The notes below the pieces were generated by a model. That model did no database searches and was not told the DNA's origin. It saw only the letters and a list, made by a program, of their open reading frames with translations. Made by a program: the position numbers and the translations under genes. Source: a virus (taxonomy: Duplodnaviria > Heunggongvirae > Uroviricota > Caudoviricetes). Taken from it: a stretch of 40,475 nt of DNA. This document shows, piece after piece, positions 15,069-39,239 of the stretch; within the stretch, counting starts at the first letter, position 1; the number at the start of each line of letters is the position of its first letter. The DNA lies in the IMG/VR virus record IMGVR_UViG_2875713109_000005. The stretch is one strand, 5' to 3'.

Positions 15069-18000
15069 TTAAGCAACGTTTTCTGCCTCTGACGCCTCTT
15101 TTAATGGTCTCAGATGTCCTTTGGTCACCAGTTCTGCCAGCGTGAAGGAATAATGGCCGAGCATATTGATATGTCCGTGGCAAAGCGGGGAGAGGCGTGC
15201 GATATCTTCATCATTCAGTGTTTCACCCTGCGCCCGGAGATGATCCAGGGCTGCCTGCATATAAATAGTGTTCCATAACACGACGGCGTTAGTGACCAGC
15301 CCCAGTGTGCCCAGTTGATCTTCCTGACCGTCGGTATATCGTTTTCTTATCTCACCTTTTTGACCGTGACAGATGGCTCTGGCAACGGCATGGCGACTTT
15401 CTCCCCGATTAAGCTGGGTCAGAATGCGCCGGCGGTAATCTTCATCATCAATATAATTAAGCAGATACAGCGTTTTGTTGATGCGCCCCACTTCAATGAT
15501 TGCCTGAGTCAGTCCGGAAGGACGTTCACTTTTCAGCAATGAACGGACCAGCACTGAAACCTGTACTTTGCCCAGCTTCAGGGAGCCAGCGGTCCGGATC
15601 ATTTCGTCCCACTGAAGGACTATTTTTCGGGGATCTGATTGCCCTCTGGCAATATCATTCAGCACGCCATAGTCGGCATCATGGTCCATTCGCCAGAAAA
15701 CCGAAGCACCGGCATCAGCCAGGCGTGGAGAAAACTGGTATCCCAGCAGCCAGAAAAGGCCAAAGACAAGTTCGCTGGCACCTGCTGTATCGGTCATAAT
15801 TTCGGTTGGATTCAGCCCGGTCTCCTGTTCCAGAAGACCTTCCAGCACAAAGATAGAGTCCCTCAGCGTCCCCGGTATAACGATGCCATGAAAGCCGGAA
15901 TACTGATCGGACACAAAGTTGTACCAGGTGATCCCTCTGTTATTACCAAAGTATTTGCGGTTCGGTCCGGCATTGATTGTTCTGACTGGCGTAACAAAGC
16001 GCATTCCATCTGCAGATGCCACTTCTCCTCCACCCCATATCTGTGCCAGTGGCAGCGTTGCCTGAAAATCAACCAGTCTGGCATTAGCGCTGGTGATAGT
16101 TTCAGCCCGCAGATAGTTCGCTTTTGTCCAGTTCAGCCGGTGTCGGGTCAGTGCAGGAACATTTGATCTGATCAGTGGTTCCAGACCGATATTGCAGGCT
16201 TCAGCCATCAGCACGGCGCTGATGCTGACGGGCAGATCATCAACTCTGGCACTGGCTTCACTAGCATGGAAAAACTCATCAGCAAATCCGGTATGGGCGT
16301 TAATTTCGAGCAGCAACTCCGTTAAATCCACCGGAGGGAGTAGATCACTGATCATTTTGCTCAGTCGTTTCAGACTGTCCGGCTCATCAAGACTGGCGAG
16401 GGGAGAAATTGTCAACCGGGGCTTCGGGCCAGAAACATCGAGTTCGACAGCCTCATTTTCGCAAAGACGTGCAGCAACCTGTCTGTAACGACTATCAAGC
16501 TGATGACCCAGAGATTTTATTGCTTCCTGCGGGTCTGTCGGGTGCCCCAAAGAACGATAAACCTTAATCCGGTTTGCCTGCCAGTCAGCACCCTGTAGTA
16601 ATCTTGCACGAGGATCTCCCCACCGGTTACTGCCGGTAACGTAGACATCCCTCCGCCTCAGACTATCCTGCAGTTTACTGAGAAAGCAGAGCGTGTATCC
16701 CCTGCGGGTGATATGTTTTTCCTTGTTAATCACCAGCCGTTTCCATGACCGACTGATAATTTCCGTTGGTGCGTCGTCAAAAAACTGCCGCCGTGAGCTG
16801 AACTCCCGGCTGAGGTAGTCACAGGCATTCAGAGTGGTAACCCCGGCAGGTGCGGATGAAAATTTAACGGTATTCAGCAGATGGGGCAGGAAACGACGAA
16901 CGCGCCCGTACTGCTCCACCATTTCTTCATGAAAATTATCGTCTGAGGGCCGGGCAATTTCACGGACAAGCGTGATGATTTCAGCCAGCTTTTGCCTTGG
17001 GATGTAGCTGAACACCTCAGCACGAATCGATTCGTCCGGTGTTTCTTCTTTCAGCAGGTACGAACATGCGCTGGCGAGCGCCAATGCAGATTTATCCAGA
17101 TCCTTCAGCGAGCGGAGCCGTTTTTTCTGCCCAATCTTTCTGGCGTCACGGATGATAACGGCCAGCATGGCGTCCAGAACGTCCAATGCATCATCCAGCG
17201 CCAGCGTTTCCCATGCAAGGACAAAGGCAACCAGAACCGCCATCCTTTTCTGCGGTGACATCCTGGCAATATTGAACACCGAAGTCATACCAGCATAACG
17301 TGCGAGATTTTTCAGGCGCACAGCCGGGAGTGTACTCAGGTTTTCAGCATGCAGGCCAAAATCGTTCAGAGTTTTCCAGCGTTCAATTGCTTCATTAAAC
17401 GCCGGACCACTGATGGTCACAGGGCCCTTTTTCAGTGATTCCAGTAAAGACAGGCGGCTGCAATCAGTTGGCCCCAGCAGCATCTCCAGCTGTGAACGCT
17501 GTTCGGCTGACGGTATCAGTGCCAGTTTGTTCCACAGGCGCAACGTCGCCTTTTCCCTTACCTCTGAAATCAACCGGGTCAGCGTAGTGGCTCCGGGGAG
17601 AATAATACGATGTTGCATAAGCCACCCTGTCGCCAGATCGAAAAGCAGGCCAGGACGTTCGTTGCTTATCCAGCTCCGGGTATATAAAAGACGGGTAAGG
17701 CGAAATGTCCAGGGCCAGGCAAATTCACGATACTGATAGTGCTGACGTATCAGCGCTGCATGCTCACGGCGGGTATTTTCCCTCTGACCGTATTCTGCAA
17801 GAACGGTGATATCACGAATCCCGAGCTGTCTGGCGGTAAAATGCCGGACGCCGGAAGGAATATGATTCATATCGGTGAGGAAGGTGCCCAGAAAACGGAC
17901 ACATCCAATTTGCAGGGCAATGCCCAGACGGTTGTGATCACCTCTGCTTTTTCCGATAAATTCCTTGTCTGCTTCATCAAGGTGAAAATATCGTGCCAGC

Positions 18001-18074
18001 TGAAGCTCATCCGGTTCACCGGTGAATCTGCCATAGCTTTCAGTCTGCTCAGTGGTCAGAAAGTCAACGGGCAT
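15069..18074 (-). CDS. tnpA: Tn3 transposase
   Basis: 1001 codons from ATG 18074 (MPVDFLTTEQTESYGRF...). The ORF track extends 53 codons upstream through res, which is spurious. Confidence 0.95.
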   Translation of the reverse strand: MPVDFLTTEQTESYGRFTGEPDELQLARYFHLDEADKEFIGKSRGDHNRLGIALQIGCVRFLGTFLTDMNHIPSGVRHFTARQLGIRDITVLAEYGQRENTRREHAALIRQHYQYREFAWPWTFRLTRLLYTRSWISNERPGLLFDLATGWLMQHRIILPGATTLTRLISEVREKATLRLWNKLALIPSAEQRSQLEMLLGPTDCSRLSLLESLKKGPVTISGPAFNEAIERWKTLNDFGLHAENLSTLPAVRLKNLARYAGMTSVFNIARMSPQKRMAVLVAFVLAWETLALDDALDVLDAMLAVIIRDARKIGQKKRLRSLKDLDKSALALASACSYLLKEETPDESIRAEVFSYIPRQKLAEIITLVREIARPSDDNFHEEMVEQYGRVRRFLPHLLNTVKFSSAPAGVTTLNACDYLSREFSSRRQFFDDAPTEIISRSWKRLVINKEKHITRRGYTLCFLSKLQDSLRRRDVYVTGSNRWGDPRARLLQGADWQANRIKVYRSLGHPTDPQEAIKSLGHQLDSRYRQVAARLCENEAVELDVSGPKPRLTISPLASLDEPDSLKRLSKMISDLLPPVDLTELLLEINAHTGFADEFFHASEASARVDDLPVSISAVLMAEACNIGLEPLIRSNVPALTRHRLNWTKANYLRAETITSANARLVDFQATLPLAQIWGGGEVASADGMRFVTPVRTINAGPNRKYFGNNRGITWYNFVSDQYSGFHGIVIPGTLRDSIFVLEGLLEQETGLNPTEIMTDTAGASELVFGLFWLLGYQFSPRLADAGASVFWRMDHDADYGVLNDIARGQSDPRKIVLQWDEMIRTAGSLKLGKVQVSVLVRSLLKSERPSGLTQAIIEVGRINKTLYLLNYIDDEDYRRRILTQLNRGESRHAVARAICHGQKGEIRKRYTDGQEDQLGTLGLVTNAVVLWNTIYMQAALDHLRAQGETLNDEDIARLSPLCHGHINMLGHYSFTLAELVTKGHLRPLKEASEAENVA

Positions 18075-18795
<721 letters not shown>

Positions 18796-18907
18796 TACGC
18801 CTATTTTTATAGGTTAATGTCATGATAATAATGGTTTCTTAGACGTCAGGTGGCACTTTTCGGGGAAATGTGCGCGGAACCCCTATTTGTTTATTTTTCT
18901 AAATACA

Positions 18908-18936
18908 TTCAAATATGTATCCGCTCATGAGACAAT
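18908..18936 (+). promoter_or_regulatory. bla P3-type promoter
   Basis: -35 TTCAAA (18908-18913), a 17-bp spacer, and -10 GACAAT (18931-18936). Confidence 0.7.
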
Positions 18937-18965
18937 AACCCTGGTAAATGCTTCAATAATATTGA

Positions 18966-19838
<873 letters not shown>

Positions 19839-19985
19839 CTGTCAGACCAAGTTTACTCATATATACTTTAGATTGATTTAAAACTTCATTTTTAATTTAA
19901 AAGGATCTAGGTGAAGATCCTTTTTGATAATCTCATGACCAAAATCCCTTAACGTGAGTTTTCGTTCCACTGAGCGTCAGACCCC

Positions 19986-20602
19986 CTGAACAATGTGACG
20001 GACTCAGAAGCCTTCCCGGGTCTTATCCGGCAGACTCACAGAAAAATCAGGGCAGCATCGGCAGATGGCGCTTACGACACCCGGCTCTGTCACGATGAAC
20101 TGCGGCGTAAGAAAATCAGCGCCCTTATCCCACCCCGAAAAGGTGCGGGTTACTGGCCCGGTGAATATGCAGACCGTAACCGTGCAGTGGCTAATCAGCG
20201 AATGACCGGGAGTAATGCGCGGTGGAAATGGACAACAGATTACAACCGTCGCTCGATAGCGGAAACGGCGATGTACCGGGTGGGTTACTGGCCCGGTGAA
20301 TATGCAGACCGTAACCGTGCAGTGGCTAATCAGCGAATGACCGGGAGTAATGCGCGGTGGAAATGGACAACAGATTACAACCGTCGCTCGATAGCGGAAA
20401 CGGCGATGTACCGGGTAAAACAGCTGTTCGGAGGTTCACTGACACTGCGTGACTACGATGGTCAGGTTGCAGAGGCTATGGCCCTGGTACGAGCGCTGAA
20501 CAAAATGACGAAAGCAGGTATGCCTGAAAGCGTGCGTATTGCCTGAAAACACAACCCGCTACGGGGGAGACTTACCCGAAATCTGATTTATTCAACAAAG
20601 CC
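19986..20602 (+). mobile_element. IS903 3' fragment with a 135-bp internal tandem duplication
   Basis: It starts mid-transposase (..LNNVTDSEAFPGL..) directly at the Tn3 IR. 20147-20281 is repeated at 20282-20416. The terminal IR GATTTATTCAACAAAGCC ends at 20602. Confidence 0.85.
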
Positions 20603-23175
20603 ACGGGAGACTCGCAGTTTGGACACTTTATGTTAATTGAAGACATAGGCATCAAAGACAAATAGGTCCAATACTCGCCATTCTTAATTAATCGTGTATT
20701 GCATGTACCACAGTGGGTATACACGGTAAAGTGTGTACACTCATTGCACCGATACCAACGCTTTTGATTATTTGAACTCATTGATTTCGTTACATCAACT
20801 ACTTTTTCAGACCCACAAGAAACACAAAAATTCACCGCATGAGTATCATCCGATGCTCCTCGAAAAGATGTATTGTCTTCAATGCCGTACTGTAGAAACA
20901 TCCCTAGCATACGTTGGATTTCATCAAGATAGCGTTGCGACTTCATTGGGTTTGCACATACTGCACCATAGTTTGTAGCTTGGCGTTGATGGCGTGCAGG
21001 TTCCCAATCAAACATGGATAGTTCGCCCAAATAACTGTCTTTCGCCCATTCCTGTGGAGAGACGACTTTCTCAACCGCATCTAACACGGGGTGAAGAACA
21101 AACACACTGTTCTCTTGGCATTCGCTATAATCTTTGCCGTTGTAAAGTTCATGGATAACCCCACCGATCCCACCTCTTTGCTTGAGATAGGCAGCAGAAT
21201 AGTACTTTGCATCGACGACTAACCGCTTTGAAATCTGGTTACCACTTTTGGTAATCGCTTCTACATCCAAAACAAAATCAGGGCGCTTACCATTTGCTAA
21301 GAACGGTTCGTATTGCAGAGTGATAGCTCTTGAAACACTTGGGTTGAAAAACTGAATGCTGATTTGTTCTTCATTGCCTTGAATATTCGCAATCAATTTT
21401 CGTTTCCAGTTGTCCTCTGGCTGATAGCGGAATGCCTGAGTCAGCACTTTGATGATTTGCAGCAAACACCAGCGTTCATAAAGTAGTGGCATGTTGACTA
21501 ACCCAATCGCTTCGATCTTCTCCAGCGAAAGCAAAATGTCCTCATCGGCCAAGCCAATCTGCTCTTTTAACTTTTTAAAACCCGAGTGAACCGCTTGATA
21601 GGCAGGGTTTTGCACAAAAGTCATAGAGTTAGGAAAGGTGCTTTTACTTTTGACTTTGCATTGACGCCATTCTTTTTCTATTTGCTGGAAAGGTTTCAGT
21701 TTTGGCTCAAGCGCTTTGTGTACGATTCCCACCTTTTCATGTTCAGTTGCGAAATAACCCAAGCGCTTATTGATGGTAGCACGTTCTTTTTCCTGTTCAG
21801 CGAGTTCATCTGTTGTCAGCTTCGCTTGCCAATCATTTTTACTTAGAGCAATGCCTTTATCACGCAATTTAGTGAAATTTTCTTGCTCTCTTTGAATAGA
21901 ACGAGACTCTGGTAATACGCAAATTCGTGAGATGTATTCTGGATACAAGACCACCGCTTTTCCCCTTCTTAACGGTAAAGGGATCTTCGCTTCTATCTCA
22001 TAGTCGCTATAAGCTTTAAACAAGCTGGCGTAATGATCTCTAGAATTAAAAATGGTATATCCATCTGGCTCAAACTGTTGCCAGTCATCATTTTGCGATA
22101 GTTTAATTTTAGCCCACCACTCATTCTCAGAGCCTGTTGCTTTTTCCAATCTTAGGTAACCTTTTTCAGAGTAACTTCGAGACAGATTAACGTTGATTTT
22201 CGCTAACTGTTCCGATAACTCGGCATTGATTACTTCTGTATCAAAGCGCTTTTTAAGTCGTTCTAAGTCTTTAACTACTAGGTCACGGTTGATAATACGA
22301 TAGTCTTTTAAACTGTCTAAACGCTCATTGAGCTTTTCAATAGCCCCAGAAAAACGACTCTTTTTGCTCTCAGCCACCTTAACCAATTGCTTTACAATGC
22401 TCAGCGTGCTCGAAACCACATACAGCACATACTGGTTTTCTGGCACGTTGTAACTCGGCTCAGATGCGCGGCTCGTTAAATGCTTACGCGAACCTTTGGT
22501 ACAAATCTCCATAAATGTACGTGGAACAGGACGTACTTCTTTTGCTGGCTTTAACGCTTGAATTTCTTTCAGTTCAACTTTGGGCTTTTTGAGGATGGTT
22601 TGTGCATTGCTAAGAATTGATGCGACTAATGACAGCGCTTCTTGGCCGATGGCTGCAACCTGTGAATTTTTAGCGTCGCCCGTGATATGACTATTCTCAT
22701 CGAGGATCAGCTCCCACAGGTCCGCTTTAAAATCTGACAGGTAACGTGAAAGATCCGATTTGGTCTGTTCGGAGATATCAATATCAAGCTTTAGTGTCGA
22801 GTTACCAATAACAAACGTGATCTGACCAGCCGTTCGCCTCGCTTCACTGCGCCACACCCGTTGTTTTGCGTCCCAATGAGCAGGCTCAACCCACCACACA
22901 GCATTAGATGCGGGATCGGTTATCGACTCTAACTGCTTTCTATCACCATTAGGCATGACAATGTAAGGCGGAGACTGATCACCCTGCTTAGTTTTTATCG
23001 CAAGTTGAGCAAAACGTAGCTCATCGACCTTAGGGTAGATGGTGGTGTGTGCGGAAAATGCATTGTTCCCCGTCTGCTCAAGCTTTAGCGAGTACTCCGA
23101 CTCGCTAACACTGACTAAGGTTTGCTTATCGTGCCATTTGGTCTCGATAAACTTGATAACGAATGGAGCTTCCAT
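20572..23175 (-). CDS. large McrC/DUF2357-like PD-(D/E)xK nuclease-family protein with C-terminal double zinc ribbon; 3' end clipped by IS903
   Basis: 867-aa ORF. LLYERWCLLQI is followed by RPDFVLD(633)...VVD(655)AK(657)YY. Four CxxC pairs are present (C784/787, C810/813, C822/825, C851/854). From residue 859 onward the codons and the stop are IS903 IR sequence. The ATG lies 2 nt after the stop of the upstream AAA+ gene. Confidence 0.8.
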   Translation of the reverse strand: MEAPFVIKFIETKWHDKQTLVSVSESEYSLKLEQTGNNAFSAHTTIYPKVDELRFAQLAIKTKQGDQSPPYIVMPNGDRKQLESITDPASNAVWWVEPAHWDAKQRVWRSEARRTAGQITFVIGNSTLKLDIDISEQTKSDLSRYLSDFKADLWELILDENSHITGDAKNSQVAAIGQEALSLVASILSNAQTILKKPKVELKEIQALKPAKEVRPVPRTFMEICTKGSRKHLTSRASEPSYNVPENQYVLYVVSSTLSIVKQLVKVAESKKSRFSGAIEKLNERLDSLKDYRIINRDLVVKDLERLKKRFDTEVINAELSEQLAKINVNLSRSYSEKGYLRLEKATGSENEWWAKIKLSQNDDWQQFEPDGYTIFNSRDHYASLFKAYSDYEIEAKIPLPLRRGKAVVLYPEYISRICVLPESRSIQREQENFTKLRDKGIALSKNDWQAKLTTDELAEQEKERATINKRLGYFATEHEKVGIVHKALEPKLKPFQQIEKEWRQCKVKSKSTFPNSMTFVQNPAYQAVHSGFKKLKEQIGLADEDILLSLEKIEAIGLVNMPLLYERWCLLQIIKVLTQAFRYQPEDNWKRKLIANIQGNEEQISIQFFNPSVSRAITLQYEPFLANGKRPDFVLDVEAITKSGNQISKRLVVDAKYYSAAYLKQRGGIGGVIHELYNGKDYSECQENSVFVLHPVLDAVEKVVSPQEWAKDSYLGELSMFDWEPARHQRQATNYGAVCANPMKSQRYLDEIQRMLGMFLQYGIEDNTSFRGASDDTHAVNFCVSCGSEKVVDVTKSMSSNNQKRWYRCNECTHFTVYTHCGTCNTRLIKNGEYWTYLSLMPMSSINIKCPNCESPVALLNKSDFG

Positions 23176-23177: not shown

Positions 23178-25352
23178 TTACGCCCAGTAGTTCACAACGC
23201 CATCATTCGATTCAGCCGTTTTAACCAAACGCTCTACCGATTTGGTGCAAGAAAACTCCGCCGTTATCTCTGCTTGATTATCCAACAGCGACTCAAGGCG
23301 AGGCAAGAATACACGGCTAACAAGCTCAGCTTTACTGTAATCGCCTACTTGCTTATCACCATCAAATGTGAATTTTGGTAGCACCTTATGAACGATAAAG
23401 TTGTTGATGGCCAGAGACTTATTGTCGTTTACATCGCTAAACAAACTTACGTAGTTAAGCCCCTGTCGAATGGTACGCATACCAAACTCCACGCCAAGCG
23501 GATCAAAGACATCTCGGTTTAAGGTCGTAAACAACTCGCAGAATTCATTCGTACGTTCAAATTTCGGATAAGGGGTACGCTCACCAAGCTCTTCAATATC
23601 AAACACTAGCGGTAAAGTAACGTCGTCTAGCCCGTAAGAGTCAATCTCATCAAAAATCGCATCCCAGTCGGTCAGCAAAGGACTCTTAAACTTCATCACA
23701 TGCGCGCGGTCAAGAATTTTTGGTGAGAGGTAATGGGTTGTTTCGTCGATGTTGATAGCACCAATAATTCTTACGTTCGCTGGAATCGTGATTGACGAAG
23801 GCGTGCCGAGAACACCTGCCAACATGCGTCTGATATCACCGTGGTATTTAATCAGTGAGTCTTTATCGCTAAAGCCAAACGCGCGCTTCATTTCAGCGTT
23901 AATTTCTTCATCTTGCATGAGCGCAACGAAGTCCACGATGCCATTTTTGCTGAACTTTTCTTGCGCGTTAGAAATGACAGAAACAACCCCTTTTAGCTCG
24001 GCAAGAACGTGTGCAGCTTCATCATCCGAGTAAAGTTGAATGGTCGGTTGCTCGTTACGCTCCTCTAGCTTAGAAAGAAAGTCGGCAAAGTAATATTCCA
24101 CTCGGGCAAGGTTCATTTCGTCTAAACAGATGAAGTATGGGATATCTGGGTTTTGCTTAGCCTCGATCAATGCCTCAAGAAATGGTGTCACCAAATATTT
24201 CTTCTCTAGGGGATTGTAATAACCCAGCAAATCTTCTGAACTAGTCCAGTTAGGCTTGACCGGAATGATCTTCGATACCCCACCAATAGCCTTGGCAAAC
24301 GACTGAACCAGGTTTGTTTTGCCTGAGCCTGAGTCCCCCGCCAGAATGATGAGATCATGGGTGCGAATAAGCGTTAGGAAGTTCTCGATAATATGGCGCG
24401 GGTACAAGATATCTCGTTCTTTTAGGTGCGCTTGAATGTATGAAACGGCATCACTGTAGTTAGAATCAAAAGCTTGCGAAAAAGAGATATGCTCGTCACG
24501 ATCCTTATTAGACAAGGTGCTTCCAACAAAAAGGTCAAAATCGTCATCATCCAAAAACTCAAAGCTTTTTAGGAATCCAGCCTTACTTTCGACATAAGCT
24601 TTTAAGCGTTCAATTTTTTTAGACATTGTTTCTTCTGCCTTCTTTTGCAATGCGATTTTGTGTTGCCATTCAGAGTGTTCAACTTCCAGCTTTTGGGCTT
24701 TCGCAATTGCCTGAGAGAGAACGTTATTTTTTTGATTTAGGTCATCTTGGACATGTTGAAGCTGATCTTTATATGACGATATCTGAGCCTTCAATGAGGA
24801 TTCTTCGCGCTCAAATTCTGCGTTAAGTGCAGTCACTTCGCTGTCAATTCTTGATTGAACGTTCTGTAAATGCTGCTTGTAAACAGCTTCATCAAGGAAG
24901 ATGTTTTCATCACCTTTGATGATGTCATTCGCCGTATATTCAGGAAGTTTGATAAGTCGACGGACTGAACTTACTACCACATTGCATTCGAACGGGTTTT
25001 CATGTTTTTCGCGTTCAGATTGAGGCGCTAAAGCAAGCTCGCATGAGACAAAACTCCCATCTTCCAAGCCAAATAACTCTTCGACACTTTTGAAGGAAAC
25101 AAAAACACCTTTGTCCATCGTCAAACGAACATTAATGGGATATTCAGTATCCAGTCCCGTTTGGAGGGATTTAATCTCTAAAAGACGGGTTGGGAGCTTT
25201 CTGCTATCGGAATCTGGGCCATTTAGAATCTTGCCCCAAACTGCCAGTTTTCCATTCGTAATCCCCCAACTCTCACAAAGGCATTGATAAAGCTCTTCAT
25301 CAGAGAACCCTTTAACCTCTTCAAGATTGTAGATAACTTGTTCTAAGGCCAT
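23178..25352 (-). CDS. McrB-like (AAA_5 branch) AAA+ NTPase with N-terminal unknown domain and coiled coil
   Basis: 724 aa. Walker A GDSGSGKT (aa 339-346, nt 24315-24338), Walker B FICLDEMNLARVEYYFADFL (aa 407-426), IIGAINIDETTHYLSPKILDRAHV (aa 529-552), and a heptad-rich segment at aa ~155-257. Confidence 0.8.
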   Translation of the reverse strand: MALEQVIYNLEEVKGFSDEELYQCLCESWGITNGKLAVWGKILNGPDSDSRKLPTRLLEIKSLQTGLDTEYPINVRLTMDKGVFVSFKSVEELFGLEDGSFVSCELALAPQSEREKHENPFECNVVVSSVRRLIKLPEYTANDIIKGDENIFLDEAVYKQHLQNVQSRIDSEVTALNAEFEREESSLKAQISSYKDQLQHVQDDLNQKNNVLSQAIAKAQKLEVEHSEWQHKIALQKKAEETMSKKIERLKAYVESKAGFLKSFEFLDDDDFDLFVGSTLSNKDRDEHISFSQAFDSNYSDAVSYIQAHLKERDILYPRHIIENFLTLIRTHDLIILAGDSGSGKTNLVQSFAKAIGGVSKIIPVKPNWTSSEDLLGYYNPLEKKYLVTPFLEALIEAKQNPDIPYFICLDEMNLARVEYYFADFLSKLEERNEQPTIQLYSDDEAAHVLAELKGVVSVISNAQEKFSKNGIVDFVALMQDEEINAEMKRAFGFSDKDSLIKYHGDIRRMLAGVLGTPSSITIPANVRIIGAINIDETTHYLSPKILDRAHVMKFKSPLLTDWDAIFDEIDSYGLDDVTLPLVFDIEELGERTPYPKFERTNEFCELFTTLNRDVFDPLGVEFGMRTIRQGLNYVSLFSDVNDNKSLAINNFIVHKVLPKFTFDGDKQVGDYSKAELVSRVFLPRLESLLDNQAEITAEFSCTKSVERLVKTAESNDGVVNYWA

Positions 25353-25599
25353 GATTTCTATTCAAAAAATAAATAAAGGGATTACCTAAGTGTTGCAAAC
25401 TCAACACATCTACATCTAGAGAAAAACAGGTTTAGCTTTGCTTCTTATCTAGCATTTTTTAGCGAGATAATCGCCAACGAGCATTTCAATAAATTCTTTA
25501 AGCTCCTGATATTAAACACCATAAGTCTAATATGGCAACAGTTTCTATAATCGCGTTTCGCGAATCCGTGTGACCTGCCCCCAGGATTAGATACAACCG

Positions 25600-26873: not shown

Positions 26874-28260
26874 GGCTTTGTTGAATAAATCAGATTTCGG
26901 GTAAGTCTCCCCCGTAGCGGGTTGTGTTTTCAGGCAATACGCACGCTTTCAGGCATACCTGCTTTCGTCATTTTGTTCAGCGCTCGTACCAGGGCCATAG
27001 CCTCCGCAACCTGACCATCGTTACCCGGTACATCGCCGTTTCCGCTATCGAGCGACGGTTGTAATCTGTTGTCCATTTCCACCGCGCATTACTCCCGGTC
27101 ATTCGCTGATTAGCCACTGCACGGTTACGGTCTGCATATTCACCGGGCCAGTAACCCGCACCTTTTCGGGGAGGGATAAGNGCGCTGATTTTCTTACGCC
27201 GCAGTTCATCGTGACAGAGCCGGGTGTCGTAAGCGCCGTCTGCCGATGCTGCCCTGATTTTTCTGTGAGTCTGCCGGATAAGACCCGGGAAGGCTTCTGA
27301 GTCCGTCACATTGTTCAGCGACAGGTCTGCACAGATGATTTCATGTGTGTTGCTGTCAACTGCCAGATGCAACTTTCGCCATATACGACGGCGTTCCTGG
27401 CCATGCTTTTTGACTTTCCACTCGCCTTCACCAAAGACCTTCAGCCCGGTGGAATCAATCACCAGATGCGCGATTTCACCCCGGGTGAACGTTTTGAAAC
27501 TGACGTTAACCGACTTTGCCCGCCTGCTGACACAGCTGTAATCCGGGCANGATGATTTCATGTGTGTTGCTGTCAACTGCCAGATGCAACTTTCGCCATA
27601 TACGACGGCGTTCCTGGCCATGCTTTTTGACTTTCCACTCGCCTTCACCAAAGACCTTCAGCCCGGTGGAATCAATCACCAGATGCGCGATTTCACCCCG
27701 GGTGAACGTTTTGAAACTGACGTTAACCGACTTTGCCCGCCTGCTGACACAGCTGTAATCCGGGCAGCGNANCGGAACNTTCATCAGNGNAAAAATGGAA
27801 TCAATAAAGCCCTGCGCAGCGCGCAGGGTCAGCCTGAATACGCGTTTAATGACCAGCACAGTCGTGATGGCAAGGTCAGAATAGCGCTGGGGCCTTCCCC
27901 GTGATGAAGGCGTTGCCGACTCATACCAGGCCTGAATCGCCCCATCATCCAGCCAGAAAGTGAGGGAGCCACGGTTGATGAGAGCTTTGTTGTAGGTGGA
28001 CCAGTTGGTGATTCTGAACTTTTGCTTTGCCACGGAATGGTCTGTGTTGTCGGGAGGATGCGTGATCTGATCCTTCAACTCAGCAAAAGTTCGATTTATT
28101 NNNNNNNNNNNNNNNNNNNNNCGGTTGATGAGAGCTTTGTTGTAGGTGGACCAGTTGGTGATTCTGAACTTTTGCTTTGCCACGGAATGGTCTGTGTTGT
28201 CGGGAGGATGCGTGATCTGATCCTTCAACTCAGCAAAAGTTCGATTTATTCAACAAAGCC
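26874..28260 (-). mobile_element. IS903 copy (both IRs present) with deletion, duplication and gap anomalies
   Basis: GGCTTTGTTGAATAAATC at 26874 and its inverse ending at 28260. Relative to the 4729 copy there is a 37-bp deletion after 27016. 27334-27549 is repeated at 27551-27766. A 21-N gap (28101-28121) is flanked by a 129-bp duplication. Several n bases are present. Corrected length is 1020+37 = 1057 bp, the canonical IS903 size. Confidence 0.85.
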
Positions 28261-28741
28261 CCAACCAATTAGCAATTCGCTTTTCGCATGTGCTAAAACA
28301 CCACTCTGGGTGTGCATCATTTAGCAATTCAGCCATTTTGCGTTTGGTCATCCCCCGCCCCTCATACCGTTGCCGAAGGACGCTAATCAATCCTGGATGC
28401 TCTGCCAGCACCTCACTTATGACCCGATCAATACATAACGCCTCTGCATCAGTACAATGCGCCAGCCAGCTCTTTTGCTTACCGTTAATCATATCCCGCA
28501 AAAAAGCCTCAAGTTCAGACTTGTTCAGACCTGCTTTTTTCATCCTCCGGAGCGCCTCGTTAATTGCCGTTTTTGTCAGCTTTTTAGAGGCCAACAACTG
28601 GTTGAACATATTCCCCGTCTTACCGCCGCCAATATACGACCAGCGCCCCCACATGCGCAGTTTTCCCTGAATCCAGACACTTTCCAGCGTGGTGAGACGA
28701 AGGTGTTCCCCGCTTTTGCCTGTATTTGTTGGGTAAATCAT
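28261..28741 (-). pseudogene. 5' part (160 codons) of the Q-type late antiterminator gene, interrupted by IS903
   Basis: ATG 28741 overlaps the upstream stop (ATGA). The product starts MIYPTNTGKSGEHLRLTTLESVWIQGKLRMWGRWSY.... It occupies the position between the nin-like genes and the lysis cassette. The frame continues at 4719-4658. The family assignment rests on position and the RMWGRW motif and is not verified. Confidence 0.6.
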
Positions 28742-29028
28742 AAATAACCTTCCTTTCTCCAGATTTCTTGCGTGCGAAAAACACCTTCTGCATGCATCAG
28801 GCGTAAATCTTCTTTGGTGTAATCGCTTGTTTTTACCCGCCCGTCGATTAAATCGTGGCATGAGCTACAGGCAATCGCCGCCTGCATATCGTGTGGTTTT
28901 GTCGCTGTTCCGCACGTTCCCGCCAGTCGGTAATGCGCCAGCACAGACGTTTCCGGATCGTGATTGCAGTAGCCAAGAATTCTGACGGTGCACATCCGCC
29001 CCCGCGCCGCTTTACGTAAATCCACCAT
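28738..29028 (-). CDS. YbcO-like (DUF1364) prophage protein
   Basis: 96 aa, MVDLRKAARGRMCTVRILGYCNHDPETSVLAHYRLAG.CGT.TKP.D..A..ACS.CHD. It closely parallels DLP12 YbcO as I recall it. Confidence 0.7.
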   Translation of the reverse strand: MVDLRKAARGRMCTVRILGYCNHDPETSVLAHYRLAGTCGTATKPHDMQAAIACSSCHDLIDGRVKTSDYTKEDLRLMHAEGVFRTQEIWRKEGYL

Positions 29029-29627
29029 TACGCAAACTCCAGCAGCTGCGCGGCCACATTTTCGACTTGTTCCGGAGAGGAAAATTTACGGAACAGAATC
29101 CAGTTCCACAGCACATTCAGAACAGATTTATAAACCTGCTGAAACTCGGTTTCGTCCATATTCGCAAAAGCGATAGATTTTGCCCGACGCCCGCGGCTAC
29201 CGTCCGGATAAAAATGTTCGGTGTAAAATCCAGCCTGAATGGTTACCCACTCGCGAAAAGCCTCAAACGACTTTAGCAATGCCGTATCCCGGGTTCTGCG
29301 TGTCGCAACTGTATTCAGATATTGCTCTGCGGCTTCGCTCAGAGCTGGCGTATGTTCCCGGCCTACTGATTCACATAGGTAATCAACGAATCCTGAAACC
29401 AGCTTTCGTTCGCGAGGCGTGATCGCCCCACCGACCGGAGTCCAGTAATCGAATCCCAGTTGCAGGAGTTTGAAAAAACGCTTGTGGAATGCGTAGTTAC
29501 GCACACGCTTAAAGTCTGCGTGTATCCACTCGCCTATTTTGATTTGATGCAAAAAATCGCAACTCTCCGGCGTCGCCGGGAGAAGTAGTCCAGAAGAGGT
29601 TTGTTTGACCAGTTGTATATGCGCCAT
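29028..29627 (-). CDS. DUF1367 (YdfU-like) prophage protein
   Basis: 199 aa. It occupies the nin-region position upstream of ybcO-like and Q, with overlapping start and stop. The family call is from memory of Qin YdfU. Confidence 0.55.
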   Translation of the reverse strand: MAHIQLVKQTSSGLLLPATPESCDFLHQIKIGEWIHADFKRVRNYAFHKRFFKLLQLGFDYWTPVGGAITPRERKLVSGFVDYLCESVGREHTPALSEAAEQYLNTVATRRTRDTALLKSFEAFREWVTIQAGFYTEHFYPDGSRGRRAKSIAFANMDETEFQQVYKSVLNVLWNWILFRKFSSPEQVENVAAQLLEFA

Positions 29628-30494
29628 TTCTCAATCTCTCGATGGCGCAGTGCAGCAGATGCCAGTTGTTCAGGCTGACGAATAAAGTATAAATAAACTG
29701 GCTATGGTGTAAAGCTCCACATAACATGAACAAACACTACATATCAAATAGCTGATACAAGGATAGAAATACAACACTTATTATTAAAAACGATTAGATA
29801 AATTACATTTTAATGTTATGAAAAAGTTCTTTTTTATCATAACATTTCAACAAAAGCATTACAGATGCACATCCCGTCATCATCAATTATTTAAGGTGGT
29901 TAAACATGGAAAATAACAACTATGCACATCTCGCTCCTTTTTTATCCGTAATCCTTTTCGCTGGCTGTTTTATATGGGCATTATTTTTATAAAGTAGCCG
30001 CATGATTAGTTTCTGGAATCATGTTTCCCACTCAAATCATTAACATTTGATAAGATATATCTAAAAGGATGCCTTTACATTATTTGATGCGTATATGATT
30101 TATTTATATGCACAGTAAAGGCATCCTGGAAATAATCAAGATTAATGATATATTGCTTATCTCATCCCCCACTGTCTTTCACCCGGAAAACATTTATCGT
30201 TAAAAATATATCATAAGTAATTAAATTGAAATTTCAGAACACAACTAATGCACACAATAAGATTCAGTAACAGTAATCTATGCGGACTATATCGAGATTT
30301 TTTAGTTAAACTTTAATAAGTTATTCCTAACACACAGAATGCACAAACTAAAAGTAAAACAAATAGTTATACGAAAAACAACCATATTGATTCTATCTTC
30401 TCCTCTAATCAACATATCAATTATGTGTTTCATAACAGCTTGACATAACCCTCAAAAAGGTGCATTTATAATGCATGTTTTATGGGAGGTGGTT

Positions 30495-30836
30495 ATGACA
30501 CACAAGAGAATTCCTAAAGACTGGGTAATCAAACGCTCAACTCCGTTCTTCACAAAAGAGAACGTACCTTCAGCGTTATTAACACATCATAATACAGCAG
30601 CAGGTGTTTTTGGACAGTTATGCGTGATGGAAGGTACTGTAACATATTATGGTTTTGCTGATGAGAATGCTACTGAACCGGAGATAAAAGTAGTCATTAA
30701 TGCTGGCGCTTTTGCAACAAGCCCACCACAATACTGGCACCGTGTTGAACTAAGCGATGATGCTCAGTTTAATATTAACTTTTGGGTAGCTCCAGACTTC
30801 TCAGGCGAAAAAGTCTATACCGCAAAAAAAGAATAG
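30495..30836 (+). CDS. YeaR/TehB-N-like DUF1971 protein (moron)
   Basis: GGAGG lies upstream of ATG 30495. RSTPFFTKENVPSALLTHHNT..GV.G.L.VM.G.V.Y.GFADE...EP......AG.FA..PP..WH.VE...D..FNI.F.VAP parallels E. coli YeaR. Confidence 0.6.
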   Translation: MTHKRIPKDWVIKRSTPFFTKENVPSALLTHHNTAAGVFGQLCVMEGTVTYYGFADENATEPEIKVVINAGAFATSPPQYWHRVELSDDAQFNINFWVAPDFSGEKVYTAKKE

Positions 30837-30918
30837 CCACGCTATAAATATCTTATTAACTAGTCCCGGCGTGGTTCTTTCCCCGCTGGGTCTTTTACTC
30901 AGATTAGTAGTCTACGAA

Positions 30919-31044
30919 TCAGAGCCTCCGTCTGCCAGTTCGGATTCGTACCTCGCAGAGGTCTTTCCTCGTTACCAGTGCCGTCACTATGACGGTTAAA
31001 CAGATGACGATCAGGGCGATTAACATCGCCTTTTGCTGCTTCAT
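30919..31044 (-). pseudogene. hok/gef-family type I toxin homolog with aberrant C-terminus
   Basis: AAGGAG lies 8 nt upstream of ATG 31044. MKQQKAMLIALIVICLTVIVTALVTRKDLCEVRIRTG is identical to the HokD/Gef-type N-terminus as I recall it. It then reads RRRL-stop where the family has QTEVAVF.., consistent with a 1-nt deletion (GGCAGACGGAGG vs GGCCAGACGGAGG) plus divergence. Confidence 0.6.
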
Positions 31045-31566
31045 AGCCTGCTTCTCCTTGACCTTTCGGTCCGTAAGAGGCTAATCTCTATGTGTCGCAT
31101 AGATATGGCCTCAGATTAATGTTAAACGTCTTGCAGGACGCGTAATGTTAACTGGGGCTTTTCTCTATCTACCTTTGGTGTTCATGCCCGAGGCAGATAG
31201 CCTCAAGCACCCACAGCAATTCTAACTATCCAATACATCACTGCCAACACTTTAAACTCTTACCCTTTAAAACAAGAACAAAATTCAACCAATCAGCATT
31301 GGGCGTATACTCATATCCTAGAGAAAACAACTCTTTCTGTACCATTTATATCCATATGATTTATAAGCATTTGCCACTTGCCATAGCCGCACAATGACAG
31401 TTTGCCATTTGATGTCAATAGATAAAAATGATCGTTTTCAATGAGTTACATACTTGCAAGGCGTTGCACATCAGGCCCGATTACGTCAGTATCAAAAGAT
31501 TACAGATGGTGCATTACTGCCACCTCGCCTTAATGTTCCAGAACTCTCCAACTTGAGGAATTTTCA

Positions 31567-32340
31567 ATGACATCCTTTCAATTATCTTTGATTTCTCGTG
31601 AAATTGACGGCGAAATAATACATTTACGTGCCAAAGATGGTTACATAAACGCCACATCAATGTGTAGAACTGCGGGCAAACTGCTCTCTGATTACACTAG
31701 ACTCAAAACTACTCAAGAGTTTTTTGACGAATTATCACGCGATATGGGAATTCCCATATCGGAGTTAATTCAATCATTTAAAGGTGGAAGACCTGAAAAC
31801 CAAGGGACATGGGTGCATCCTGACATCGCTATTAATCTAGCGCAGTGGCTATCGCCCAAATTTGCAGTCCAGGTTTCAAGATGGGTTCGTGAATGGATGT
31901 CAGGGGAAAGAACTACAGCAGAAATGCCTGTACATTTAAAACGGTACATGGTTAATCGTAGTAGAATTCCTCACACGCACTTTTCTATTCTTAATGAACT
32001 GACATTCAACTTGGTTGCACCTCTTGAACAAGCAGGGTACACACTCCCAGAAAAAATGGTTCCTGACATTTCACAAGGAAGAGTATTTTCACAATGGTTA
32101 AGAGATAATAGAAACGTAGAACCCAAAACATTCCCTACCTATGACCATGAATATCCCGATGGTCGCGTATACCCTGCAAGGCTGTACCCAAATGAATATT
32201 TAGCAGATTTCAAAGAACATTTTAACAATGTTTGGTTGCCGCAATATGCCCCGAAATACTTCGCTGACCGGGACAAAAAGGCTCTCGCCTTGATTGAAAA
32301 AATTATGCTACCTAACCTCGATGGCAATGAACAGTTCTAA
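31567..32340 (+). CDS. KilA-N domain-containing prophage protein
   Basis: 257 aa. The N-terminal ...GYINATSMCRTAGKLLSDYTRLKTTQEFFDELSRDMGIP...GGRPENQGTWVHPDIAINLAQWLSPKFAVQVSRWV matches the KilA-N DNA-binding domain pattern. Confidence 0.75.
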   Translation: MTSFQLSLISREIDGEIIHLRAKDGYINATSMCRTAGKLLSDYTRLKTTQEFFDELSRDMGIPISELIQSFKGGRPENQGTWVHPDIAINLAQWLSPKFAVQVSRWVREWMSGERTTAEMPVHLKRYMVNRSRIPHTHFSILNELTFNLVAPLEQAGYTLPEKMVPDISQGRVFSQWLRDNRNVEPKTFPTYDHEYPDGRVYPARLYPNEYLADFKEHFNNVWLPQYAPKYFADRDKKALALIEKIMLPNLDGNEQF

Positions 32341-32460
32341 ATGATTAGCCAGCCCCATAAGGGCTGGTTATTTAGTATTATCAACCCCAGCGGCAAATCG
32401 AATACACCACCAGCGCCACCGCCATCGCAATTCCTACCGTTGTGAATGCTTCAGGCCAGG

Positions 32461-32964
32461 TCATCGTAAAACATCCTCCACGCTTATAAGTCCGCTTCGC
32501 TCCAGGTAGTCCATCACTTTATCCGGCAATTTGCAGCCCGGTTTCGCTTTCTTCAGTTGACTAACCAATTGTTTAACCAGCATTGTCAATTCGCGAACTT
32601 GTTTCCCGGGCTCCCCTTTGCCCTGAAGCAGGGCAGCGCGGCAAGCGTTCCATCCCTCAGCATATGTTTCAGTTACACCATCGAGATGGCATGTAAGCAA
32701 ATCCATTTCTTCCGGCACTACGGGCGCTGGAAAAACGGCATAGGGTGGCGTCCATTTTGGCGCTTTATCTCCAGCCGAACGCTGATACCAGTCATCCGGT
32801 TTGTATTCATAAAAATCACCAACTGGCTCTGCTTCCAGCGATGCCAGAGCAATTTTGAATAATTCGCCCTCTACCCGTGCCATCCCTGAATTGGGGTGGC
32901 ATTTCTCAATCGCTATTTTTAATTTAGCTTCTTCGATTAATTGCTTTTTGGTTAATTCAGTCAT
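32461..32964 (-). CDS. hypothetical prophage protein
   Basis: 167-aa ORF in the early-region orientation. I recognise no family. Confidence 0.5.
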   Translation of the reverse strand: MTELTKKQLIEEAKLKIAIEKCHPNSGMARVEGELFKIALASLEAEPVGDFYEYKPDDWYQRSAGDKAPKWTPPYAVFPAPVVPEEMDLLTCHLDGVTETYAEGWNACRAALLQGKGEPGKQVRELTMLVKQLVSQLKKAKPGCKLPDKVMDYLERSGLISVEDVLR

Positions 32965-33126
32965 TTTTCATTACCGCCCTTTCGGGCCGCCTCCTAATAT
33001 TTTGAGGGTGCAGCCCCCCCCCTCCGGTTAAGGATTAAATTTTATTTACAGTGCTAAATTTAATTATTCAGATTTGGATTATGATTTCTCTTTCAGTTCA
33101 CGCAGTTCCCTGATTGTTAATTTGGC

Positions 33127-33564
33127 TCACAACAGCACATCCTGAAAATTACCCTGATAGAACGCCAGTACACGCTGCATGACTTCGCTCTTCCGGCACT
33201 CGCGACAGATTATATTCAGACGCCTGTCATAGCGGCGTATTTCTCCGTCTGGTAATGACCAGATAAGGTCCGGATCAACTACAGCAGGTTTCTTCACCTT
33301 TGCCCTCGATAGTTTTTTGCGGGCGTTTTGCCAGTCTTTACGCGCCTGTTCAGACGGGAATAACCCGTAACCAGAGTTGTATACATCGCCACTGGCAACC
33401 AGCTCACTGGCGAGAACACTCATCAGATATCTTGTCGCACCTGTCTTGGCTTCCAGTTGCCGTAACGTCTCGCGACCGCTCAGACGTACAAGTTCAACAA
33501 CCTGCCCTTTAATTTTTTCCCGCTCTTCTGGTGTAAATACTTTTGCCATAGGTGCCTCCGGCAA
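33127..33564 (-). CDS. hypothetical prophage protein
   Basis: 145-aa ORF starting immediately after the upstream stop. An alternative start is M6 at 33549. I recognise no family. Confidence 0.5.
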   Translation of the reverse strand: MPEAPMAKVFTPEEREKIKGQVVELVRLSGRETLRQLEAKTGATRYLMSVLASELVASGDVYNSGYGLFPSEQARKDWQNARKKLSRAKVKKPAVVDPDLIWSLPDGEIRRYDRRLNIICRECRKSEVMQRVLAFYQGNFQDVLL

Positions 33565-34828: not shown

Positions 34829-34857
34829 CGAATGAACTCCAAAAACACACAGAAATA

Positions 34858-34900: not shown

Positions 34901-34951
34901 CGGTAAGGGTAGGGATTGCCTAATGTAATGCGCATAGGAGAATATTAAGCA

Positions 34952-35871: not shown

Positions 35872-35881
35872 GATTCGCAAA

Positions 35882-39238: not shown

Positions 39239-39239
39239 T

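What the first reader, a model, noticed from the sequence alone, without database searches (positions are those of the whole stretch)
23178..25352. The NTPase subunit replaces the usual McrB DNA-reader with an unassigned 150-aa domain plus a ~100-aa coiled coil
Residues 1-150 (nt 24903-25352) match no domain I can recognise. They are mixed alpha/beta in appearance and contain CLCESWG and CELA...ECNV cysteines. Residues ~155-257 (nt 24582-24890) are heptad-rich and charged (QSRIDSEVTALNAEFEREESSLKAQISSYKDQLQHVQDDLNQKNNVLSQAIAKAQKLEVEHSEWQHKIALQKKAEETMSKKIERLKAYVESK). There is also a ~100-aa insertion between Walker B and the NIDE/Arg region (aa 427-525), plus a ~170-aa C-terminal extension. Target recognition therefore cannot be inferred from McrB and may not involve modified DNA at all.
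Basis: partly seen in the sequence, partly recalled or inferred. Interest (0 to 1): 0.6.

Follow-up and report, generated by a model that had tools for sequence, protein, structure and literature searches.

The report
Known coiled-coil McrB-like defence GTPase
This gene encodes the GTPase subunit (CnuB) of a two-gene "CoCoNuT" Type I-A restriction-like defence system; its unusual architecture was described computationally in 2024, so it is real but not new, and nobody has yet shown by experiment what it does.

Summary
The 724-aa ORF at 23178-25352 (-) exists as described. It is followed 2 nt later by an 867-aa McrC-like nuclease (20572-23175). The pair matches PADLOC candidate system PDC-M26 end to end. 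It also meets the published definition of a Type I-A CoCoNuT (Bell et al. 2024, eLife, PMC11090510). CnuB has an N-terminal OB-fold domain, a ~100-residue uninterrupted helix, and a McrB-like AAA+ core with the shortened NxD signature (N534-I-D536). A helical insert sits between Walker B and NxD. A sister allele of this operon is listed in that paper.

One addition: the N-domain plus helix behaves as an exchangeable, fast-evolving cassette. A Klebsiella allele is 98-100% identical in DNA everywhere except this module. Function is inferred, not shown.

The parts
23178..25352 (-). cnuB: 724-aa McrB-like AAA+ GTPase subunit of a Type I-A CoCoNuT / PADLOC PDC-M26A (stop codon 23178-23180)
   Evidence: ORF. 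PDC-M26A matches 1-724/724 at 1107 bits. AAA_5 covers 335-435. hhalign against E. coli McrB gives 87.5% probability, E 3.6e-6.
24903..25352 (-). N-terminal domain, aa 1-150: short helices (10-13, 18-28) followed by a five-stranded OB-like barrel. W29, W39, Y71, P72, L106, R114 and N119 are invariant.
24582..24890 (-). Long uninterrupted helix / predicted coiled coil, aa 155-257
   Evidence: AF2 models a single helix H155-257. The segment has no Pro or Gly and shows heptad signal. Family-wide 3.5-residue periodicity has median z 2.4, and the median segment length is 103 aa.
24501..24581 (-). Conserved acidic/aromatic linker motif, aa 258-284 (AGFLKSFEFLDDDDFDLF). F260, L261, F264, F266 and D268 are invariant, yet the model is low-confidence here.
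   Evidence: Invariant columns are. pLDDT is below 50 for 256-284.
24315..24338 (-). Walker A, GDSGSGKT (aa 339-346)
   Evidence: invariant.
24111..24134 (-). Walker B strand, FICLDEMN (aa 407-414)
   Evidence: It aligns to McrB IFIIDEIN.
23796..24035 (-). Helical insert within the pre-sensor-1 beta-hairpin, aa 440-519 (helices 444-467, 475-492, 500-516). This is the feature that defines subtype I-A.
   Evidence: AF2 secondary structure is. The flanking strands align with McrB 'VPLTYSENDE...FYVPENVYIIG'.
23742..23753 (-). NxD signature, N534-I-D536-E537, replacing the McrB NxxD (N333-T-A-D336)
   Evidence: N534, I535, D536 and E537 are invariant in 61 homologues.
23181..23672 (-). C-terminal helical region, aa 561-724: the AAA+ lid (about 561-676) plus an extension of about 50 aa (helices 674-689, 702-715)
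   Evidence: AF2 is.
20572..23175 (-). cnuC: 867-aa McrC-like partner. It has a weak DUF2357 match, a PD-(D/E)xK nuclease (P632-D633 ... D654-A-K656) and four CxxC motifs (784, 810, 822, 851). Its own variable region spans aa ~320-480.
   Evidence: PDDEXK_7 E 1.1e-7 and DUF2357 E 0.0017. PDC-M26B at 1428 bits. 'KRLVVDAKYY' matches McrC 'KILIVDAKYY'.
25353..25570 (-). Native upstream region of cnuB, shared with the Klebsiella allele. It contains one sigma-70-like match at 25538-25509.
   Evidence: 218 nt align with L003 directly upstream of the ATG. The promoter-like site is a consensus match only, and sites are not enriched over shuffles.
20572..20605 (.). End of an IS903-like element (assignment by recall and adjacent IS5-family annotation) that replaced the cnuC stop codon and added 9 codons (ALLNKSDFG)
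   Evidence: This 34-nt stretch alone matches about 1,430 plasmids. The C-terminus was compared with L003. An intact IS5-family transposase sits at this position in other records.

Best explanation
The ORF encodes CnuB, the McrB-like AAA+ GTPase of a two-gene Type I-A CoCoNuT (coiled-coil nuclease tandem) system. In PADLOC this system is the candidate PDC-M26. CnuB is translationally coupled to the McrC-like nuclease CnuC.

Shown here: the domain order is an OB-fold N-domain, a ~100-residue helix, a conserved acidic linker, an AAA+ core with the NxD signature and a helical insert in the pre-sensor-1 hairpin, then a lid with a short tail. The partner has intact PD-(D/E)xK residues and two zinc-ribbon-like CxxC pairs.

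Inferred mechanism: CnuB assembles into a McrB-type ring that binds CnuC. The long helices act as stalks, probably paired as coiled coils, and hold the OB domains away from the ring. The OB domains recognise a single-stranded or structured nucleic acid of an invader (RNA or ssDNA) rather than a methylated base in duplex DNA. Binding couples to GTP hydrolysis, which licenses the CnuC nuclease to cut. DNA is the most likely substrate, because PD-(D/E)xK is the only nuclease in the system. The N-domain plus helix is the specificity module. It evolves several-fold faster than the motor and is exchanged as a cassette between otherwise near-identical operons.
For: Identity: PDC-M26A and PDC-M26B match both proteins end to end. 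E. coli CP010237.1 APL73567.1/APL73566.1 appear in the supplementary sequence table of the CoCoNuT paper, and the paper's Figure 5 legend names APL73566.1 as the Type I-A CnuC representative. APL73566.1 is 93% identical to the window CnuC over the visible part. APL73567.1 is 99.5% identical to the Klebsiella allele.

Defining features found here: the NxD motif; the long helix; a helical insert between Walker B and NxD; an OB/CSD-like N-domain; and a two-gene operon with a 2-nt gap in the window and in five other loci.

McrB relationship: hhalign gives E 3.6e-6 over the Walker A/B region. 'IPANVRIIGAIN' aligns to McrB 'VPENVYIIGLMN'. The CnuC D-A-K motif aligns to McrC.

Defence role: chromosomal homologues lie directly beside Type I or Type III restriction-modification genes.

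Specificity-cassette behaviour: the AAA core is about 90% identical across the family, against about 33% for the N-domain and about 22% for the helix. The Klebsiella allele is 98-100% identical in DNA from nt ~900 of cnuB through cnuC, but only 31-57% identical in nt 100-800. dN/dS is 0.08-0.31 in the N-module, against mostly 0.01-0.05 in the AAA core (one pair at 0.14, with low dS). The N-domain profile finds only 95 cluster representatives among 1.84 billion. In 9 of the 10 longest that I checked with Pfam it sits N-terminal to an AAA_5 core.
Confidence: 0.6

Rival explanations
1. This is the RNA-targeting, abortive-infection-type system that Bell et al. proposed for CoCoNuTs in general. The OB domains of CnuB, and the OB inserted in CnuC, bind translation-related or viral RNA. 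The outcome is RNA cleavage and dormancy rather than restriction of invader DNA.
Against: Type I-A has no HEPN or other dedicated RNase. The only nuclease is a McrC-type PD-(D/E)xK with intact, conserved catalytic residues. Chromosomal neighbours are DNA restriction systems.
Confidence: 0.2
2. The N-module senses a phage or plasmid protein, not a nucleic acid. The OB-like barrel on a stalk would be a protein-recognition receptor, and its rapid divergence would reflect an arms race with protein triggers.
For: The N-domain and helix diverge sharply and are swapped as a cassette, while the motor stays about 90% identical. Similarity to nucleic-acid-binding OB folds is weak, with no CSD sequence motifs.
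Against: The invariant residues are dominated by exposed-type aromatics plus Arg and Asn (W29, W39, Y71, R114, N119), which is typical of nucleic-acid stacking surfaces. dN/dS is below 1. No protein-sensing McrB relative is known (my own knowledge).
Confidence: 0.1
3. This is a conventional modification-dependent Type IV restriction enzyme. The N-domain would be a novel reader of a modified base in duplex DNA, as in EcoKMcrBC.
For: The pair has a McrB/McrC-like core and operon layout. McrB families are known to swap N-terminal readers (established knowledge).
Against: There is no similarity to DUF3578/McrB-N, SRA, EVE, YTH or PUA readers in any search. A ~15-nm helix between reader and motor has no counterpart in characterised McrB enzymes.
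Confidence: 0.07
4. The system is not primarily antiviral. It would be a mobile-element competition or maintenance module carried by resistance plasmids, for example acting on incoming single-stranded conjugative DNA or stabilising its carrier.
For: It occurs mostly on plasmids in Enterobacteriaceae, embedded among IS elements and resistance genes. In E. coli, 37 of 42 places are on plasmids. An OB fold could bind ssDNA.
Against: Close homologues are chromosomal, in Vibrio, Providencia, Citrobacter and Bacterioplanes, and three of the four sit beside restriction-modification genes. No toxin-antitoxin-like features were seen.
Confidence: 0.03

Closest known systems
Type I-A CoCoNuT CnuB/CnuC (Bell, Sahakyan, Makarova, Wolf, Koonin 2024, eLife 13:RP94800; PMC11090510)
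   Same: Every architectural feature described for subtype I-A is present. In CnuB these are the N-terminal CSD-like OB fold, the long coiled-coil region, the NxD-type McrB GTPase and the helical insert between Walker B and NxD. In CnuC these are DUF2357, PD-(D/E)xK and zinc-ribbon CxxC motifs. The operon has two genes. The paper's own E. coli example (CP010237.1) has the same GTPase core and a 93%-identical CnuC over the visible part.
   Different: This allele carries a different N-domain + helix cassette from the listed E. coli example: about 20-40% identity over aa 31-270, against 80-96% per 30-aa block afterwards. The cnuC stop codon is replaced by an IS end. The Ig-like N-domain and the OB insert of CnuC were not tested here.
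PADLOC-DB candidate system PDC-M26 (A and B models)
   Same: Both proteins match full length at 1107 and 1428 bits.
   Different: PDC-M26 is only a candidate label without a described mechanism. No paper in the library mentions it.
EcoKMcrBC (E. coli K-12 McrB/McrC)
   Same: Both have an AAA+ (AAA_5-type) motor with aligned Walker A/B and sensor-1 strand. Both have a downstream partner with a PD...D-A-K nuclease, and both are tightly coupled two-gene operons.
   Different: The signature is NxD instead of NxxD. There is no DUF3578-type 5mC-binding N-domain. Extra elements are the ~100-aa helix, the ~70-aa insert in the pre-sensor-1 hairpin and the ~50-65-aa C-terminal tail. CnuC is 2.5 times longer than McrC. 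Sequence similarity is remote (E 1e-3 by phmmer).
Cold-shock-domain / S1-type OB folds (Unr CSDs, Rho N-terminal RNA-binding domain, RNase R CSD, Csl4)
   Same: These are the best structural matches to the N-domain. The Rho match aligns 89-90 residues, including a helical element before the barrel.

Membership tests
Type I-A CoCoNuT (CnuB) | McrB-like GTPase with the shortened NxD signature (usually followed by E or D) | tested here: met
   N534-I-D536-E537 is invariant in 61 homologues. The AAA region has no NxxD.
Type I-A CoCoNuT (CnuB) | Long coiled-coil region fused N-terminal to the GTPase domain | tested here: met
   AF2 models a single helix at 155-257. The segment is free of Pro and Gly and has heptad signal. 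Family median periodicity z is 2.4. Whether it pairs as a true coiled coil was not testable.
Type I-A CoCoNuT (CnuB) | Helical insert in the GTPase domain between Walker B and NxD (this distinguishes I-A from all other subtypes) | tested here: met
   Helices 444-467, 475-492 and 500-516 lie between strands 437-439 and 520-522. The spacing is 119 aa against 50 aa in McrB.
Type I-A CoCoNuT (CnuB) | Cold-shock-domain-like OB fold at the N-terminus, with no YTH domain | tested here: inconclusive
Type I-A CoCoNuT (operon) | Only CnuB + CnuC, with no CnuH helicase, CnuE or CnuA | tested here: met
   In the window the pair is flanked by IS elements. The same two-gene unit, with a 2-nt gap, occurs in L003 and L005-L008.
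Type I-A CoCoNuT (CnuC) | McrC homologue with DUF2357, an active PD-(D/E)xK and zinc-ribbon CxxC motifs | tested here: met
   PDDEXK_7 E 1.1e-7. DUF2357 is below Pfam's cut-off (18.1 against 23.3 bits). PD632...D654-A-K656 and four CxxC motifs are conserved in six orthologues.
Type I-A CoCoNuT (CnuC) | N-terminal Ig-like beta-sandwich, and a coiled-coil + CSD-like insert in DUF2357 | not tested
Only a variable region at aa ~320-480 and a Pro/Gly-free segment at 278-338 were seen.
Type I-A CoCoNuT | Close sequence relationship to members listed by the authors | tested here: met
   APL73566.1 is 93% identical over the visible 399 aa. APL73567.1 shares the GTPase core and is 99.5% identical to the sister allele L003. 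ROR86958.1 has the same N-domain family.
McrB family (canonical, EcoKMcrBC-like) | NxxD GTPase signature | tested here: not met
   The signature is NxD, one residue shorter.
McrB family (canonical, EcoKMcrBC-like) | N-terminal modified-DNA-binding domain (DUF3578 or an analogous reader) | tested here: not met
McrB family (broad sense) | AAA+ core homologous to McrB, with a McrC-type partner gene | tested here: met
   hhalign gives probability 87.5%, E 3.6e-6 over 115 columns. The partner nuclease motif aligns with McrC. NCBI names close homologues 'McrB family protein'.
McrB family (broad sense) | GTP-specific hydrolysis stimulated by the McrC partner; hexameric ring | not testable with these tools
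   This needs biochemistry or a multimer structure.
PADLOC PDC-M26 | Both HMMs matched by adjacent genes | tested here: met

The most novel reading that the evidence does not exclude
The OB domain plus helix is a horizontally exchangeable specificity cassette, recombining at the conserved first ~30 codons and at the acidic linker. CoCoNuT I-A target range would then be reprogrammed by cassette swapping, much as Type I HsdS target-recognition domains are shuffled, and it would read single-stranded nucleic acid rather than base modification. The two natural alleles circulating on Enterobacteriaceae resistance plasmids are a ready-made isogenic pair that differs only in this cassette.
Probability: 0.3. 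Interest if true: 0.6.

Novelty: already known. Interest (0 to 1): 0.3.

Why it matters
CoCoNuT systems are a large, recently defined branch of McrBC-like defence, and I found no experimental characterisation of them. This operon is an accessible E. coli/Klebsiella example. It is carried on resistance plasmids: about 0.3% of PLSDB plasmids and 0.7% of complete E. coli genomes. Here it sits in an IS/Tn3/blaTEM-1 block flanked by sequence that matches lambdoid prophages. Knowing that the N-domain and helix form a swappable module on a constant motor gives a direct way to test what the system recognises. For annotation purposes, the finding should simply be labelled CnuB/CnuC (Type I-A CoCoNuT, PDC-M26).

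Tried and rejected
- **Zinc or metal site from the cysteines.** Rejected: C24, C26 and C123 vary; only C104 is conserved.
- **Ketol-acid reductoisomerase similarity.** phmmer gives E 2e-5 over aa 269-416. I treat it as chance, because the alignment places the P-loop GDSGSGKT opposite a non-P-loop segment, and every other line of evidence says AAA+.
- **Full-length Foldseek against PDB.** It returns only generic AAA+ hits (MCM, dynein, RavA, midasin-like) with low TM-scores, because the long helix distorts the global fit. It does not help with subfamily placement.
- **PDB sequence search with the insert deleted in silico.** McrB did not improve (E 0.016), and multi-domain midasin dominated the list.
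- **Word-indexed homologue search with aa 1-158.** Only 6 short fragments came back, so that search was wasted. The HMM scan of 1.84 billion representatives replaced it.
- **hhalign of the N-domain profile against E. coli CspA.** Nothing found.
- **AFDB50 fold search.** The library was unavailable.
- **Domain-wide positive selection.** Not supported: dN/dS was 0.31 or lower in every domain and every pair.
- **Strict co-variation of the CnuB N-module with the CnuC variable region.** Rejected: the Klebsiella allele has a swapped CnuB cassette but a 95-97% identical CnuC region.
- **The '1,594 plasmids' as a prevalence figure.** Rejected: most hits are a 34-nt IS end.
- **Literature search for experiments on CnuB or PDC-M26.** Nothing found.
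Full report
**1. What is there**

Its stop codon is followed 2 nt later by the start of an 867-aa ORF at 20572-23175.

Pfam recognises only an AAA_5 core (aa 335-435, E 8.7e-8) in the first protein. In the second it finds a PD-(D/E)xK nuclease domain (PDDEXK_7, E 1.1e-7) and a sub-threshold DUF2357 match. NCBIfam gives only a very weak McrB hit. PADLOC matches both proteins end to end to the candidate defence pair PDC-M26A (1-724 of 724, 1107 bits) and PDC-M26B (1428 bits). So the pair was already catalogued as a candidate system.

**2. Checking the four sub-observations**

- **Motifs.** Walker A is GDSGSGKT at 339-346, Walker B is DEMN at 411-414, and NIDE is at 534-537.
- **Full-length model.** I built it from 61 homologues; mean pLDDT is 74.8. 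It shows one continuous helix from 155 to 257. It shows helices 444-467, 475-492 and 500-516 between short strands at 437-439 and 520-522. It shows five C-terminal helices between 603 and 715.
- **Helix 155-257.** The segment has no Pro or Gly. Its heptad a/d score exceeds the 99th percentile of shuffles for windows starting at 177-198. Hydrophobic periodicity at 3.5 residues gives z of about 2 in this allele. Over 101 distinct homologous segments the median z is 2.4. These segments keep a median length of 103 residues although they are only about 22% identical. Charge pairs at i/i+4 are also somewhat enriched. The long helix is therefore robust, but true coiled-coil pairing is likely rather than proven.
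- **Insert.** In E. coli McrB, 50 residues separate Walker B from the sensor-1 Asn. Here the distance is 119. 'IPANVRIIGAIN' aligns with McrB 'VPENVYIIGLMN', so the extra ~70-80 residues sit inside the pre-sensor-1 hairpin.
- **C-terminal region.** It aligns weakly but collinearly with the McrB lid (query 519-676 to McrB 318-456). Only about 50-65 residues are a genuine extension.

**3. The N-domain**

An alignment of 38 diverse N-domains gave a confident model (pLDDT 81.2, pTM 0.72). It has two short helices followed by five strands.

hhalign of the N-domain profile against CspA finds nothing, so the assignment rests on fold alone and is of moderate strength. The invariant residues are W29, W39, Y71, P72, L106, R114 and N119.

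A profile of the domain searched against 1.84 billion cluster representatives found only 95 proteins. Of the ten longest that I checked with Pfam, nine carry the domain upstream of an AAA_5 core. The domain is therefore essentially private to this family.

**4. Relationship to McrBC**

Direct sequence similarity to E. coli McrB is remote (phmmer E 1e-3). A profile of the family aligns to McrB residues 175-297 with 87.5% probability and E 3.6e-6.

The McrB signature N-T-A-D is shortened here to N-I-D. In the partner, 'KRLVVDAKYY' matches 'KILIVDAKYY' of McrC, the segment carrying the nuclease D-x-K. The PD...D-A-K residues and four CxxC motifs are conserved in six orthologues.

**5. Comparison with what is known**

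Bell et al. (2024, PMC11090510) defined coiled-coil nuclease tandems (CoCoNuTs) as a branch of McrBC systems. In this branch the GTPase has an NxD motif and is fused to a long coiled coil. Type I-A consists of CnuB and CnuC only. [quoted passage not shown] Type I CnuB proteins usually carry an N-terminal cold-shock-domain-like OB fold. Type I-A CnuC has a PD-(D/E)xK nuclease and zinc ribbons.

Every one of these features that I could test is present here. The paper's supplementary table includes E. coli CP010237.1 APL73567.1/APL73566.1, and APL73566.1 is the paper's structural representative for Type I-A CnuC. Over the visible part, APL73566.1 is 93% identical to the window's CnuC. APL73567.1 shares the window's GTPase core.

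I found no experimental study of a Type I-A system. The architecture is therefore already described, while the function remains a prediction.

**6. What this analysis adds**

*The N-module diverges much faster than the motor.* Across 114 full-length homologues the AAA core is about 90% identical. The N-domain is about 33% identical and the helix about 22%.

*The N-module is exchanged as a cassette.* A Klebsiella allele (P0038, a cluster of 738 sequences; locus L003) is 98-100% identical in DNA from about nt 900 of cnuB to the end of cnuC. It is 86% identical in the first 100 nt. It is only 31-57% identical between nt 100 and 800. This is a clean cassette replacement of the OB domain plus helix. 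That allele is the one listed by Bell et al. (99.5% identity).

*The window allele is the rarer one.* In PLSDB, 229 plasmids carry the cnuB core but only 38 carry the window's N-module.

*Selection is relaxed but not positive.* Among four chromosomal orthologues, dN/dS is 0.08-0.31 in the N-domain and helix. It is mostly 0.01-0.05 in the AAA core (one pair reaches 0.14, with low dS) and 0.04-0.07 in the lid. The N-module therefore evolves faster but is not under domain-wide positive selection. Uneven dS along the gene also points to mosaic recombination. One homologue (P0035) has instead a diverged C-terminal region.

*CnuC has a variable module of its own.* It lies at about aa 320-480, with identity down to 25-30% while the rest of the protein is 80-97% identical. 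It does not have to change together with the CnuB cassette, because the Klebsiella allele keeps it at 95-97%.

*The linker is conserved.* The acidic/aromatic linker after the helix (AGFLKSFEFLDDDDFDLF) contains five invariant residues yet is modelled with low confidence. That pattern is what one expects of a docking motif.

**7. Context**

Chromosomal orthologues lie directly downstream of Type I restriction-modification genes (Vibrio chagasii). Others lie beside a Type I R subunit plus dynamin-like GTPases (Providencia), or downstream of a Type III-like methylase/helicase-nuclease pair (Citrobacter). The 2-nt cnuB-cnuC junction is the same in every case. This supports a defence role by association.

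In Enterobacteriaceae the operon is mostly plasmid-borne. It occurs in 40 of 5,426 complete E. coli genomes, with 37 of 42 places on plasmids. It lies among IS elements and resistance genes.

In this window, 218 nt of native upstream sequence are retained. An IS3-family element lies upstream. An IS903-like end has replaced the cnuC stop codon, adding nine residues. The regions either side of the IS/Tn3/blaTEM-1/cnuBC block match lambdoid phages: 28250-40475 is 98% identical to Rac-like phages, and part of 1-9500 matches the sitABCD cargo of lambdoid phages.

**8. Mechanism**

The domain architecture and motifs are shown here; the rest is inferred.

By analogy with McrBC (established knowledge: a hexameric McrB ring whose GTPase is stimulated by McrC, with McrC carrying the nuclease), CnuB most likely forms a ring that binds CnuC. 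The helices probably act as stalks presenting the OB domains. The OB domains most likely bind single-stranded or structured nucleic acid.

The only nuclease in the system is an intact McrC-type PD-(D/E)xK. I therefore favour DNA cleavage as the output, with RNA targeting (the published general hypothesis) as the main rival. A protein-sensing role for the variable module, a conventional modified-DNA reader, and a plasmid-competition role are less likely alternatives.

**9. Verdict**

The feature is a member of an already described family (Type I-A CoCoNuT, PADLOC PDC-M26). Interest is modest. The useful new point is the natural pair of alleles that differ only in the N-module, which makes the specificity question directly testable.

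Noticed in passing
window 20572-20605: The last 9 codons of cnuC (ALLNKSDFG) and its stop come from the end of an IS903-like element (IS family assigned by recall and by the IS5-family annotation in other records) inserted exactly at the native stop. Other alleles end at ...CPNCESPV. This 34-nt stretch alone accounts for about 1,430 of the 1,594 plasmid hits to the operon.
   Followed up: yes
window 19995-20546 and 26977-28324: The IS903/IS5-like transposase fragments contain internal duplications: a ~45-aa block is repeated in the 183-aa ORF. There are also runs of ambiguous bases (X in the translations around 27.5-28.2 kb). This suggests an assembly gap or collapsed repeat next to the operon.
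   Followed up: no
window 15069-19838: A 1054-aa ORF, a 197-aa ORF and a 286-aa ORF lie immediately downstream of the IS fragment that abuts cnuC. By recall of the translations, these look like a Tn3-family transposase, a resolvase-like protein and a class A beta-lactamase. In related plasmids the gene next to cnuC is annotated as TEM-1.
   Followed up: partly
window 28250-40475 and 1-9500: The flanking regions match lambdoid phages. 28250-40475 is 98% identical to Rac-like Escherichia phages (recE/recT, integrase, replication O). Part of 1-9500 matches the sitABCD cargo of lambdoid phages. The resistance/IS/cnuBC block therefore seems to be inserted in a prophage here, whereas most relatives are on plasmids.
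   Followed up: partly
window 20572-23175 (cnuC) in other records: Several GenBank plasmid records annotate this McrC-like nuclease as 'EstP' or 'pyrethroid hydrolase', which looks like a propagated misannotation. Some RefSeq records call CnuB a 'DUF8727 domain-containing protein'.
   Followed up: no
window 21736-22216 (cnuC aa ~320-480): CnuC has its own hypervariable segment. Identity falls to 25-30% between orthologues that are 80-97% identical elsewhere. The segment probably corresponds to the coiled-coil plus OB insert described for Type I-A CnuC. It varies independently of the CnuB N-module.
   Followed up: partly
window 24501-24581 (cnuB aa 258-284): The acidic/aromatic motif FLKSFEFLDDDDFDLF has five invariant residues across the family, yet it is predicted as disordered or low-confidence. 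It is a candidate docking motif.
   Followed up: no
window 24105-24546 (cnuB aa 269-416): This stretch shows an unexpected phmmer similarity to ketol-acid reductoisomerases (E 2e-5). I judged it a chance match, because the P-loop aligns to a non-P-loop segment.
   Followed up: partly
L009 (E. coli D4 chromosome NZ_CP010143.1), locus positions 15967-20747 and 27557-32337: There are two inverted copies of the identical cnuBC operon, each with tet(B) and IS elements, in what looks like an integrated plasmid (repA and parB nearby).
   Followed up: no
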